Part shown: one piece after another, positions 17,901 through 20,900 of the stretch
Position numbering within the stretch: the stretch's first letter is position 1
How the letters are laid out: each line of letters starts with the position of its first letter
NCBI RefSeq assembly: GCF_965641715.1
Contig: NZ_OZ282453.1
Direction: 5' to 3' (one strand)
DNA from: Escherichia coli
GTDB taxonomy: Bacteria; Pseudomonadota; Gammaproteobacteria; Enterobacterales; Enterobacteriaceae
DNA length: 64,000 bases
Program-made: the position numbers

Positions 17901-20900
17901 TGATGCGGTAGTGGCGCAGAAATTTGCTCGTGAGCTGCAAAAAGAGGGCATTTACGTCACCGGTTTCTTCTATCCGGTCGTTCCGAAAGGTCAGGCGCGT
18001 ATTCGTACCCAGATGTCTGCGGCGCATACCCCTGAGCAAATTACGCGTGCAGTAGAAGCATTCACGCGTATTGGTAAACAACTGGGCGTTATTGCCTGAG
18101 GATGTGAGATGAAAGCGTTATCCAAACTGAAAGCGGAAGAGGGCATCTGGATGACCGACGTTCCTGTACCGGAACTCGGGCATAACGATCTGCTGATTAA
18201 AATCCGTAAAACAGCCATCTGCGGGACTGACGTTCACATCTATAACTGGGATGAGTGGTCGCAAAAAACCATCCCGGTGCCGATGGTCGTGGGCCATGAA
18301 TATGTCGGTGAAGTGGTAGGTATTGGTCAGGAAGTGAAAGGCTTCAAGATTGGCGATCGCGTTTCTGGCGAAGGCCATATCACTTGCGGTCACTGTCGCA
18401 ACTGTCGTGGCGGTCGTACCCATCTGTGCCGCAACACGATCGGCGTCGGCGTTAACCGTCCGGGCTGCTTCGCCGAATATCTGGTGATCCCGGCGTTCAA
18501 CGCCTTCAAAATCCCAGACAATATCTCCGACGACCTGGCTTCCATTTTTGATCCCTTCGGTAACGCCGTGCATACCGCGCTGTCGTTCGATCTGGTTGGC
18601 GAGGATGTGCTGGTCTCTGGTGCAGGTCCGATAGGTATTATGGCTGCGGCGGTGGCGAAACACGTTGGTGCACGCAATGTGGTGATCACTGATGTTAATG
18701 AATATCGTCTCGAACTGGCGCGCAAAATGGGTATCACCCGTGCGGTCAACGTCGCTAAAGAAAACCTTAATGATGTGATGGCAGAACTGGGCATGACCGA
18801 AGGCTTTGATGTCGGTCTGGAAATGTCCGGTGCGCCGCCAGCGTTTCGTACCATGCTCGACACTATGAACCACGGCGGTCGTATTGCGATGCTGGGTATT
18901 CCACCTTCTGACATGTCGATAGACTGGACAAAAGTGATCTTTAAGGGCTTGTTCATTAAAGGCATTTACGGTCGTGAGATGTTTGAAACCTGGTACAAGA
19001 TGGCGGCGCTGATTCAGTCTGGCCTCGATCTCTCGCCGATCATTACCCATCGTTTCTCTATCGATGATTTCCAGAAGGGCTTTGACGCTATGCGTTCGGG
19101 CCAGTCCGGGAAAGTTATTCTGAGCTGGGATTAACACGAACAAGGGCTGGTATTCCAGCCCTTTTATCTGAGGATAATCTGTTAAATATGTAAAATCCTG
19201 TCAGTGTAATAAAGAGTTCGTAATTGTGCTGATCTCTTATATAGCTGCTCTCATTATCTCTCTACCCTGAAGTGACTCTCTCACCTGTAAAAAGAATATC
19301 TCACAGGCTTAATAGTTTCTTAATACAAAGCCTGTAAAACGTCAGGATAACTTCAGAGGTCGTCGGTAATTTATGATGAACAGCACCAATAAACTTAGTG
19401 TTATTATTCCGTTATATAATGCGGGCGATGATTTCCGCACTTGTATGGAATCTTTAATTACGCAAACCTGGACTGCTCTGGAAATCATTATTATTAACGA
19501 TGGTTCAACGGATAATTCTGTTGAAATAGCAAAGCATTACGCAGAAAACTATCCGCACGTTCGTTTGTTGCATCAGGCGAATGCTGGCGCATCGGTGGCG
19601 CGTAATCGTGGGATTGAAGTGGCAACGGGCAAATATGTCGCTTTTGTCGATGCTGACGATGAAGTCTATCCCACCATGTACGAAACGCTGATGACCATGG
19701 CGTTAGAGGACGACCTCGACGTGGCGCAGTGCAACGCTGACTGGTGTTTTCGTGAAACGGGAGAAACCTGGCAATCCATCCCCAGCGATCGCCTTCGCTC
19801 AACCGGTGTATTAACCGGCCCGGACTGGCTGCGGATGGGGCTTTCTTCGCGCCGTTGGACTCACGTTGTCTGGATGGGGGTTTATCGCCGCGATGTTATT
19901 GTTAAAAATAACATTAAATTTATTGCCGGATTACATCATCAGGATATTGTCTGGACAACAGAATTCATGTTTAATGCGCTGCGTGCGCGATATACCGAGC
20001 AATCATTATATAAATATTATCTGCATAATACGTCAGTGAGTCGGTTGCATAGACAAGGGAATAAAAACCTTAATTATCAACGTCACTATATTAAGATTAC
20101 CCGCCTGCTGGAGAAATTAAATCGAAATTATGCCGACAAAATTACGATTTATCCGGAATTTCATCAGCAAATAACTTACGAAGCATTGCGTGTTTGCCAT
20201 GCGGTGCGCAAAGAGCCGGATATTCTTACCCGCCAACGGATGATTGCCGAGATATTTACTTCCGGTATGTATAAGCGCCTGATTACCAATGTGCGCAGCG
20301 TGAAGGTGGGTTACCAGGCGTTACTGTGGTCTTTCCGCTTATGGCAATGGCGCGACAAAACGCGGTCGCACCATCGCATTACGCGTAGCGCCTTTAATTT
20401 GCGCTAGCGTTAAGTTTCGCCGCTTCGGGCTGTTTGCCCCAGCCTTGCCACTGATGCTGGAAGTAAACGATCAGCGTGCTCTGGCTGATGCTTTCGCTTA
20501 ATACTTCAAAGAAGCGATTAGCATAAACAGGTTCTATCGGTTTCTTCGGTTTGCACAGCTTCACGCCACGGAACGGATTACGCGGTGTGTCGGGCACAGT
20601 GTTTTTCGGCGGTGTAGACGTATCAACCTGCGGTTCATTCAGCAAGCTGCTGGCTTTCACCAGCGTAATGTCTGGCGGCAGGTTATAAACCATCTGTTGT
20701 AGCACGCGTACCGTTGAAGGGTGAGGATGCCCAATGGCAATGGTTGAACCGTTGCGACGCGCCAGGTCAATTGCACGATTAAACTGCACACGGATGTCTG
20801 CTTCGTTCTGTGAATCGTCGAGGAACACCTTCCGTTTGATCACCTTCACGCCAGTGCCTTGCGCGGCGCGCATCGCCTGGGTATTACCAATGGTTACGCT

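What the first reader, a model, noticed from the sequence alone, without database searches (positions are those of the whole stretch)
19190..19372. Possible PhoB-type box upstream of waaH
waaH (yibD) has been reported as phosphate-starvation induced in K-12. The upstream region has CTGTCA/CTGTAA-like half-sites (ctgtcagtgtaataaaga near 19198; cctgtaaaacgtcaggataa near 19329), but neither matches the CTGTCAT-N4-CTGTCAT consensus well.
Basis: inference. Interest (0 to 1): 0.25.

Follow-up and report, generated by a model that had tools for sequence, protein, structure and literature searches.

The report
Known waaH promoter, weak Pho boxes

Summary
The window is E. coli, and 19135-19372 is the tdh-waaH intergenic region (one SNP from K-12). 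The quoted sequences are there, and CTGTMA is locally enriched (3 copies against 0.17 expected). As Pho boxes they fail. A matrix built from 59 ChIP-seq PhoB sites gives at most 6.8 bits in the region. Shuffles reach that 33% of the time, and regulated PhoB targets score at least 10.

The best hit is CTTAATAGTTTCTTAAT (19308-19324), a perfect PmrA/BasR box. It lies 10 bp upstream of a conserved TAnAAn -10 hexamer (19335-19340), and this arrangement is kept in about 13 genera. Site 1 lies in a conserved distal block that looks like a Pho promoter in other genera. The block is degenerate in E. coli and is absent from a truncated yibD promoter that still responds to low phosphate.

A third CTGTAA (19285) starts a weak PhoB-like box exactly 22 bp upstream of the BasR box, in phase with it. 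This tandem scores highest in the whole window, but I chose the test after seeing the sequence.

PhoB-dependent waaH expression, in vitro PhoB binding and PmrA/QseB binding are all published. Three ChIP-type studies saw no PhoB at waaH. Verdict: already known, low interest, with a testable shared-box model.

The parts
19142..19163 (+). tdh intrinsic terminator stem-loop (9-bp arms, then TTTTAT). It marks the upstream limit of the waaH control region.
   Evidence: I1: 9-nt arms, 100% complementary. tdh is the ORF at 18109-19134 (annotation).
19187..19240 (+). Distal conserved block: TGTAAA 19189, TGTCAG 19199, TGTAAT 19205, CGTAAT 19219. In eight other sequences (about six genera) the orthologous sequence reads TGTCAT/TGTCGT/GGTCAT, a 5-nt A-rich spacer, a weak second half-site (mostly TTCGT-like), 10 bp, then TAnTCT, which is Pho-promoter geometry. 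In E. coli it is degenerate (TGTAAT..., hexamer ATCTCT).
   Evidence: Alignment A1. Orthologous 18-mers score 3.7-8.7 where the block is recognisable, against 5.1 in E. coli. One minus-strand hit scores 13.2 in Siccibacter colletis. The block stays with waaH where another gene separates tdh from waaH. It is absent from the truncated yibDp, which still responds to low phosphate. It is polymorphic among E. coli strains.
19286..19303 (+). Upstream weak PhoB-like box TGTAAAAAGAATATCTCA (the CTGTAA word starts at 19285). It lies exactly 22 bp upstream of the BasR box, so four half-site positions (19286, 19297, 19308, 19319) share one 11-bp phase. It contains the rare G19294 allele (K-12 has T).
   Evidence: PWM 3.6 for the window allele and 6.2 for the K-12 allele. 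The tandem score with 19308 is 10.5 / 13.0, rank 1 of 127,922 positions in the window; shuffles reach it with P=0.006 / 0.002. The box is found only in Escherichia. The SNP was identified. The exact 84-bp haplotype containing G19294 occurs in 11 of 5411 genomes.
19308..19324 (+). PmrA/BasR box CTTAAT-AGTTT-CTTAAT, a direct repeat with an 11-bp period in the -35 position. It is also the best single PhoB-PWM hit of the region (6.83 for 19308-19325).
   Evidence: It is one of two YTTAAK-N5-YTTAAK matches in 64 kb, and the only one made of CTTAAT half-sites (0.12 expected). The published consensus is CTTAA-N5-CTTAA, with yibD as a founding instance (PMC1525208). The UPEC yibD promoter is bound by PmrA~P and QseB~P, and its Fe3+ induction needs pmrA (PMC5677524). 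The box is conserved in about 13 genera and invariant in 7 diverse E. coli.
19303..19335 (.). Perfect 8-bp inverted repeat ACAGGCTT / AAGCCTGT (arms 19303-19310 and 19328-19335) enclosing the BasR box. Its function is unexplained.
   Evidence: I2. Folding gives z -3.65 on the + strand and -3.57 on the - strand. Other genera carry analogous palindromes with different arm sequences and registers.
19335..19340 (+). Inferred -10 hexamer TAAAAC, exactly 10 bp after the second CTTAAT. The predicted start site is about 19346-19348.
   Evidence: TAnAAn lies at a fixed 10-bp gap in all 19 box-bearing orthologues, while the gap sequence itself varies. The same half-site + 10 bp + hexamer geometry is seen at K-12 arnB (GTTAAT+10+TAAAAT) and at pstS, phoA and phoB. 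No sigma-70 -35/-10 pair is found here. No start-site data were available to me.
19355..19359 (+). Likely Shine-Dalgarno sequence AGAGG in a conserved short leader (TTCAGAGG).
   Evidence: Read directly from the sequence. Conserved in A1.
19373..20407 (+). waaH (yibD) coding sequence, 344 aa: UDP-glucuronate:LPS(HepIII) glycosyltransferase.
   Evidence: ORF list. RefSeq annotation of matching genomes.

Best explanation
The region is the waaH (yibD) promoter. It is a single activator-dependent promoter with no -35 hexamer. A direct repeat, CTTAAT-N5-CTTAAT (19308-19324), sits 10 bp upstream of a weak -10 hexamer, TAAAAC (19335-19340). That repeat is the binding site of the OmpR-family regulator BasR/PmrA, and at lower affinity of QseB. 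It gives Fe3+/envelope-responsive and basal expression.

I infer that phosphate-starvation control is added at the same promoter. PhoB~P, which recognises 11-bp-phased direct repeats placed at the same distance from the -10, would bind with low affinity to a four-repeat, in-phase array. The array is made of the Escherichia-specific box TGTAAA-N5-TATCTC (19286-19303) and the CTTAAT repeat itself. Binding would raise transcription a few-fold.

Shown here or in the literature: the identity of the locus, the BasR box with its conservation and geometry, the weakness of all PhoB matches, PhoB-dependent RNA levels, and in vitro binding. Inferred: the -10 hexamer and start site, and that PhoB acts through 19286-19324.

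Site 1 belongs to a distal, partly decayed Pho-like block that is not needed for low-phosphate induction in E. coli.
For: Locus identity: 100% match to E. coli tdh-waaH, with one SNP from K-12.

BasR box:
- It is the only CTTAAT-type match to YTTAAK-N5-YTTAAK in 64 kb (two matches in all, 0.12 expected).
- It is conserved with a fixed 10-bp gap to TAnAAn in 19 orthologous sequences from about 13 genera.
- K-12 arnB has the same geometry.
- Published work shows PmrA/QseB binding and pmrA-dependent induction.

PhoB dependence and binding:
- RNA-seq gives 13872/11547 in wild type against 3032/2925 in delta-phoB. eptA and basR are unchanged, so the effect does not go through the BasR regulon as a whole.
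- An APEC pst mutant shows a 46-fold increase.
- EMSA shows a shift with PhoB, and a footprinting paper exists.

Location of the phosphate response: the truncated yibDp (window about 19219-19355) keeps tight low-phosphate induction.

Geometry: pstS, phoA and phoB all show half-site + 10 bp + -10, exactly as at waaH.

PWM results:
- The waaH BasR box scores 6.8 as a PhoB site, against -1.9 for the eptA box and 1.8 for the arnB box.
- The in-phase tandem 19286+19308 ranks 1 of 127,922 positions in the window. Shuffles reach it with P=0.006, or 0.002 for the K-12 allele.
- ytfK is the sister case. Its best site scores 10.9 bits and it has two reported pho boxes, yet it is also ChIP-negative. So a ChIP negative does not exclude weak sites.

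Conservation: 19287-19372 is invariant in 7 diverse E. coli apart from the window's own G19294.
Against: - No PhoB signal was seen at waaH in ChIP-chip, ChIP-exo or ChIP-seq, and the ChIP-seq authors conclude that regulation is indirect.
- No single PhoB match exceeds chance (P=0.33). Every match is below all ten regulated direct targets.
- I chose the tandem test after seeing the sequence. pstS scores 39 on the same measure.
- The upstream box is not conserved outside Escherichia. This window's allele weakens it by 2.6 bits.
- The A/T-rich block 19287-19299 could instead be an UP element, or the T-tract of an antisense hairpin.
- The inferred -10 hexamer lacks the usual T at position 6, and I had no transcription start data.
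- I could not read Yoshida 2011, Klein 2013 or Vogeleer 2019, so the published footprint coordinates are not compared.
Confidence: 0.5

Rival explanations
1. PhoB control of waaH is indirect. PhoB does not bind here in vivo. The promoter is driven by BasR/PmrA (and QseB) or by another regulator whose activity changes when the Pho regulon is on, for example through envelope or metal changes. The PhoB-like words are chance, or a by-product of the BasR box and A/T-rich DNA.
For: - Three in vivo binding studies found no PhoB at waaH.
- All PhoB PWM matches are at background for single sites.
- PhoB dependence is modest (4.3-fold) over a high PhoB-independent level.
- In the same data set many genes without PhoB sites, such as the colanic-acid genes, also depend on phoB, so indirect branches exist.
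- The only deeply conserved activator site is the BasR box.
Against: - eptA and basR RNA are unchanged in delta-phoB, so the BasR regulon as a whole is not the route.
- PhoB shifts the promoter in vitro, and a footprint is reported.
- The tagged PhoB used for ChIP-seq had 8-fold reduced activity, and it also missed ytfK, whose best site scores 10.9 bits.
- The plasmid-borne 137-bp truncated promoter is tightly phosphate-controlled.
Confidence: 0.3
2. The functional Pho box is the distal block, that is, the reader's site 1. TGTCAG/TGTAAT-AAAGA-GTTCGT (19199-19222) would drive a second, upstream PhoB-dependent promoter with a hexamer near 19232-19243 and a leader of about 130 nt.
For: - The block is conserved across genera and stays with waaH.
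- In eight other sequences it shows canonical Pho-promoter geometry: a TGTCAT-like first half-site, a weak second half-site 11 bp on, a 10-bp gap and TAnTCT. PWM scores there are 3.7-8.7.
- It carries one of the three CTGTMA words.
Against: - In E. coli the first half-site is TGTAAT, the second is poor, and the hexamer position reads ATCTCT; the PWM score is 5.1.
- The truncated yibDp lacks 19187-19218 yet keeps tight low-phosphate induction. The full-length promoter gives equal or lower expression.
- The block is polymorphic within E. coli at box positions 19211 and 19216-17.
- EcoCyc, as relayed, places a predicted NsrR site in the removed part.
Confidence: 0.1
3. The conserved A/T-rich block GTAAAAA(G/T)AATAT (19287-19299) is not a PhoB half-site. 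It is either an UP element for the BasR-dependent promoter (about -60 to -48) or the T-tract of a minus-strand hairpin terminator formed by the inverted repeat around the BasR box.
For: - GTAAAAATA(A/G)TAT is conserved in Escherichia, C. amalonaticus, C. sedlakii, Silvania and Pseudocitrobacter, but the second PhoB half-site is not.
- The minus-strand fold gives -16.7 kcal/mol (z -3.57) followed by UUCUUUUU, or UUAUUUUU in K-12.
- Several genera show a hairpin followed by a U-rich tail on that strand.
Against: - The hairpin loop is 17 nt, and the terminator scan did not call it.
- The distance from stem to U-tract varies between genera, and about half the lineages have no hairpin.
- No minus-strand gene needs a terminator here.
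- An UP-element role does not exclude PhoB binding.
Confidence: 0.2

Closest known systems
PmrA/BasR-box promoters (arnB/pmrH, eptA/pmrC, ugd; Salmonella and UPEC yibD itself)
   Same: There is a perfect CTTAAT-N5-CTTAAT direct repeat in the -35 position. The 10-bp gap to a TAAAAx hexamer matches K-12 arnB. yibD is a published PmrA target, bound by PmrA~P in vitro.
   Different: Unlike eptA in the same data set, waaH RNA also depends on phoB. The waaH box resembles a PhoB site more closely than the eptA and arnB boxes do (6.8 against -1.9 and 1.8). It is preceded by two further in-phase half-site positions.
Pho-box promoters of the E. coli Pho regulon (pstS, phoA, phoB, ugpB)
   Same: Direct repeats with an 11-bp period replace the -35, and the last half-site lies 10 bp from the -10. 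There is a tandem two-box layout as at pstS. Expression depends on PhoB.
   Different: The half-sites are CTTAAT, TGTAAA and TATCTC rather than TGTCAT. PWM scores are 6.8 and 3.6-6.2, against 10-23 for regulated targets. The tandem score is 10-13, against 39 for pstS. No ChIP signal was seen.
ytfK promoter (the other PhoB-dependent gene that is ChIP-negative but reported as footprint-positive)
   Same: It was reported in the same 2006 and 2011 papers. It has two pho boxes upstream of the promoter. Its PhoB dependence is modest (log2 2.1) and it gave no ChIP-seq peak.
   Different: The best ytfK site is stronger (10.9 bits). ytfK is not known to overlap a BasR box.

Membership tests
Pho box (PhoB binding site) | Two 7-bp direct repeats close to CTGTCAT, separated by an A/T-rich 4-bp spacer (11-bp period), scoring like known sites. 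| tested here: not met
The best single 18-mer scores 6.83, and it is the BasR box. Only 2 of 59 ChIP-seq sites score lower, all regulated targets score at least 10.1, and 33% of shuffles reach 6.83.
Pho box (PhoB binding site) | The box replaces the -35 hexamer, with the last half-site 10 bp upstream of the -10 hexamer. | tested here: met
   CTTAAT (19319-19324) + 10 bp + TAAAAC. The same spacing is seen at pstS, phoA and phoB. The geometry is shared with BasR promoters (arnB), so it does not discriminate between the two families.
Pho box (PhoB binding site) | Tandem in-phase boxes, as at pstS and ytfK. | tested here: inconclusive
   The 19286+19308 tandem ranks 1 of 127,922 in the window (P=0.006 by shuffling). 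The test was chosen post hoc, pstS scores 39 against 10-13 here, and the upstream box occurs only in Escherichia.
Pho box (PhoB binding site) | PhoB occupancy in vivo under phosphate limitation. | not testable with these tools
   Literature only. ChIP-chip, ChIP-exo and ChIP-seq were negative. EMSA was positive and a footprint is reported.
Pho box (PhoB binding site) | phoB-dependent expression under phosphate limitation. | not testable with these tools
   The literature meets this feature: log2 2.1 in RNA-seq, 46-fold in a pst mutant, and phosphate-depletion induction of yibDp reporters.
PmrA/BasR box | YTTAAK-N5-YTTAAK direct repeat. | tested here: met
   There is a perfect match at 19308-19324. 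It is one of two matches in 64 kb and the only CTTAAT-type one, with 0.12 expected. The consensus comes from PMC1525208.
PmrA/BasR box | Promoter-proximal position with conserved spacing to the -10, kept in orthologues. | tested here: met
   The 10-bp gap to TAnAAn is fixed in 19 sequences from about 13 genera, while the gap sequence varies. K-12 arnB is the same.
PmrA/BasR box | PmrA/BasR binding and PmrA-dependent expression. | not testable with these tools
   The literature meets this feature: PmrA~P EMSA, loss of Fe3+ induction in UTI89 delta-pmrA, and membership of the Salmonella PmrA regulon.

The most novel reading that the evidence does not exclude
waaH is a promoter at which one direct-repeat element is shared by three OmpR-family response regulators. 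PhoB~P would act through the BasR/PmrA (and QseB) box itself, helped by two Escherichia-specific in-phase half-sites. Its affinity would be too low, or competition from BasR too strong, for ChIP to detect it. This would reconcile the in vitro footprints with three negative in vivo maps. It would also mean that phosphate control moved in Escherichia from an ancestral distal Pho-type promoter, still recognisable in other genera, onto the BasR promoter.
Probability: 0.3. Interest if true: 0.4.

Novelty: already known. Interest (0 to 1): 0.2.

Why it matters
waaH adds glucuronic acid to the LPS inner core, and its promoter (yibDp) is widely used as a phosphate-depletion switch in bioprocess strains. 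Whether PhoB controls it directly is disputed in the literature.

This analysis does not settle the dispute, but it narrows it. It places the BasR box, which the yibDp preprint's figure legend describes as an uncharacterized BasR binding site. It shows that the sequences a naive reading would pick are the -10 hexamer and a dispensable distal block. It also names a 39-bp array (19286-19324) whose mutation would decide between direct and indirect control. For the genome scan itself, this is an ordinary, already-characterised promoter.

Tried and rejected
- Single-site PWM scan for Pho boxes: nothing above background.
- Sigma-70 -35/-10 scan: no promoter called, as expected for an activator-dependent promoter.
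- Rfam on 18900-19600: only a sub-threshold chance hit to a fungal snoRNA, so there is no known RNA element.
- Indirect control through the BasR regulon: rejected as the whole explanation, because eptA and basR are unchanged in delta-phoB.
- An alternative PhoB-specific -10 hexamer, TAGTTT (19313-19318), inside the BasR box: rejected, because its A2 is lost in L001 and C. sedlakii.
- An alternative -10 hexamer, TAACTT (19347-19352): rejected, because the start site would then fall on or after the Shine-Dalgarno sequence.
- By-eye comparison of the distal block with the CpxR, OmpR, PhoP, ArcA, Fur and NsrR consensus sequences (recalled from memory): no convincing match.
- An RcsAB-box resemblance (AAGAATAT) exists only in this window's rare G19294 allele and not in K-12, so it was not pursued.
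- In-window positive control using the yibT/yibL ChIP-seq site: not found within 3 mismatches, so pstS and ytfK from K-12 served as controls instead.
- Yoshida 2011, Klein 2013, Vogeleer 2019 and Marchal 2004 could not be read. Searching papers for the promoter sequence itself found nothing.
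Full report
**What the region is.** The window is Escherichia coli. ORFs at 16903-18099, 18109-19134 and 19373-20407 are kbl, tdh and waaH. 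A 321-bp query across the junction matches 5423 of 5426 complete E. coli genomes, always under "tdh" and "waaH: UDP-glucuronate:LPS(HepIII) glycosyltransferase". Against K-12 MG1655 the 238-bp intergenic region differs at one base, G19294 where K-12 has T. The exact 84-bp haplotype containing that G occurs in only 11 of 5411 genomes. The finding therefore concerns the well-studied yibD/waaH promoter.

**Checking the observation.** Both quoted strings are present, at 19198-19215 and 19331-19350. CTGTMA is not enriched in the window as a whole (47 matches against 46.9 in shuffles). Three copies nevertheless lie on the + strand of the 238-bp spacer, at 19198, 19285 and 19332, where 0.17 are expected (P about 8e-4).

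Leave-one-out scores of those sites have a median of 14.0 and a lower quartile of 12.0. The ten sites upstream of PhoB-regulated genes score 10.1-23.3. In the intergenic region:
- the best score is 6.83, at 19308-19325;
- the best near site 2 is 0.8.

Shuffles of the region reach 6.83 in 33% of trials.

**What the best hit really is.** 19308-19324 reads CTTAAT-AGTTT-CTTAAT. This is a perfect instance of the PmrA/BasR box (consensus CTTAA-N5-CTTAA), and yibD is one of the founding examples (PMC1525208). The degenerate pattern YTTAAK-N5-YTTAAK matches twice in 64 kb against 0.12 expected, and this is the only match made of CTTAAT half-sites.

I fetched 54 waaH-homologue loci from other species and aligned the upstream regions. 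The box is the most conserved element of the region. In 19 orthologous sequences from about 13 genera it is followed by a gap of exactly 10 bp whose sequence varies, and then by a hexamer TAnAAn. In the window that hexamer is TAAAAC at 19335-19340. K-12 arnB, a classical BasR target, has GTTAAT + 10 bp + TAAAAT.

I therefore read 19335-19340 as the -10 hexamer and place the start site near 19347, with a Shine-Dalgarno sequence at 19355-19359. This is an inference: I had no start-site data, and the hexamer lacks the usual final T.

The literature agrees on the regulator:
- yibD belongs to the Salmonella PmrA regulon and responds to PreA/QseB.
- In uropathogenic E. coli its Fe3+ induction needs pmrA, and a 105-bp promoter fragment is bound by PmrA~P and, more weakly, by QseB~P (PMC5677524).

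**Site 1 and the distal block.** 19187-19240 is a second conserved block. In eight sequences (C. sedlakii, Salmonella, Pseudocitrobacter, Siccibacter x2, Kosakonia, Superficieibacter and a related MAG) the orthologous sequence has a TGTCAT-like first half-site (TGTCAT, TGTCGT or GGTCAT), a 5-nt A-rich spacer and a weak second half-site (mostly TTCGT-like). A 10-bp gap and TAnTCT then follow. That is the layout of a Pho promoter, with a good first half-site and a poor second one. PWM scores there are 3.7-8.7, and one minus-strand hit reaches 13.2. The block stays next to waaH even where another gene lies between tdh and waaH, so it belongs to waaH.

In E. coli the block is degenerate: TGTAAT-AAAGA-GTTCGT, hexamer position ATCTCT, score 5.1. 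It is also polymorphic between strains at box positions. The Lynch laboratory's "modified yibDp" starts at CGTAATTG (window 19219) and so lacks site 1. It is nevertheless among the most tightly phosphate-controlled promoters they tested, and the full-length version gives the same or lower expression (10.1101/2020.01.26.920280). So site 1 may be a relic of an ancestral Pho-type promoter, but it is not needed for the phosphate response in E. coli.

**Where PhoB could act.** The published record conflicts.

For direct or at least PhoB-dependent control:
- waaH RNA falls 4.3-fold in delta-phoB, while eptA and basR do not change.
- waaH is 46-fold up in an APEC pst mutant.
- PhoB shifts the EDL933 promoter in EMSA.

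Against direct control:
- ChIP-chip, ChIP-exo and ChIP-seq all lack a signal at waaH.
- Fitzgerald et al. conclude that regulation is indirect, while noting that any site must be of low affinity and that their tagged PhoB had 8-fold reduced activity.

The sequence offers one candidate. The overlooked CTGTAA at 19285 starts an 18-mer, TGTAAAAAGAATATCTCA (19286-19303), that lies exactly 22 bp upstream of the BasR box. Four half-site positions (19286, 19297, 19308, 19319) therefore share one 11-bp phase, as in the double Pho box of pstS. The last of them lies 10 bp from the -10, exactly as at pstS, phoA and phoB. The scores are:
- upstream box: 3.6 here and 6.2 with the K-12 T allele;
- sum of the two boxes: 10.5 / 13.0, the highest tandem score at any of the 127,922 positions in the window, reached by 0.6% / 0.2% of shuffles;
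- the waaH BasR box scored as a PhoB site: 6.8, against -1.9 for eptA and 1.8 for arnB. This would explain why phoB affects waaH but not eptA.

As a calibration, ytfK is the sister case. It has two reported pho boxes and a best site of 10.9 bits, and it was also missed by ChIP-seq.

The caveats are serious. I chose the tandem test after seeing the sequence. pstS scores 39 on the same measure. The upstream box exists only in Escherichia. The conserved part of it, GTAAAAATA(A/G)TAT, could be an UP element instead.

**Verdict.** My best explanation has confidence about 0.5. It is a single activator-dependent promoter whose -35 region is a BasR/PmrA (and QseB) box, with PhoB~P acting weakly through the in-phase array 19286-19324. 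The main rival, at about 0.3, is purely indirect PhoB control. The distal block as the working Pho box gets about 0.1.

Novelty: already known. Interest: low (0.2). The only added value is a concrete mutational test for a small open dispute.

**Side observation.** The BasR box is enclosed by a perfect 8-bp inverted repeat, 19303-19310 / 19328-19335. It folds with z about -3.6 on either strand. Several other genera have a palindrome around their box with different arm sequences and registers, and about half have none. I have no tested explanation for it.

Noticed in passing
window 19303-19310 and 19328-19335: A perfect 8-bp inverted repeat, ACAGGCTT / AAGCCTGT, encloses the BasR/PmrA box. It folds at -10 kcal/mol (z -3.65) on the + strand. 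On the - strand it folds at -16.7 kcal/mol (z -3.57) and is followed by UUCUUUUU. C. sedlakii, Leclercia, S. diarizonae, Pseudocitrobacter and Superficieibacter have palindromes around their boxes with different arm sequences and three different registers. Eight of 20 sequences beat at least 98% of flank shuffles, and about nine lineages have none. Candidate roles are an antisense terminator, a leader hairpin of an upstream transcript, or neutral quasi-palindrome correction. None was tested.
   Followed up: partly
window 19294: G here is a rare allele; K-12, O157:H7 and B2 strains have T. The exact 84-bp haplotype occurs in 11 of 5411 complete E. coli genomes. It lies in the spacer of the candidate upstream PhoB box and lowers its PWM score from 6.2 to 3.6. 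It also creates AAGAATAT, which resembles half of an RcsAB box. The rest of 19287-19372 is invariant in seven diverse strains.
   Followed up: partly
window 14947-15330 (inside rfaF/waaF, 14701-15747, - strand): The three highest single PhoB-PWM scores of the whole 64-kb window (12.6, 12.0 and 11.4) all fall within 400 bp inside the rfaF coding sequence. The K-12 ChIP-seq table reports no PhoB peak there.
   Followed up: partly
window 20394-20407: waaH (+ strand, ends 20407) and yibQ (- strand, ends 20394) overlap tail to tail by 14 bp with no intrinsic terminator between them. yibQ read-through would run antisense through waaH towards the promoter hairpin.
   Followed up: no
L017-L026, L041 (C. 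freundii complex, Kluyvera), about 200 bp upstream of the match at 2501: These genomes carry a glycosyltransferase only about 66% identical to WaaH in the same tdh-x-yibQ slot. Its upstream region is different: a single CTTAAT, no BasR box and no Pho-like site, with a TATACT hexamer close to the start codon.
   Followed up: partly
L063 (E. coli O157:H7 strain H2495), waaH: RefSeq annotates waaH as a frameshifted pseudogene in this O157:H7 genome, although the promoter region matches K-12 closely across the proximal part.
   Followed up: no
L010, L012 (Silvania), upstream of waaH: The box region appears to have lost one 11-bp repeat unit: CATAAT-CATTT-GTTCA runs directly into TACAAT. The upstream GTAAAAATAGTAT block is kept in phase, so the BasR box is gone but the promoter geometry is preserved.
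   Followed up: no
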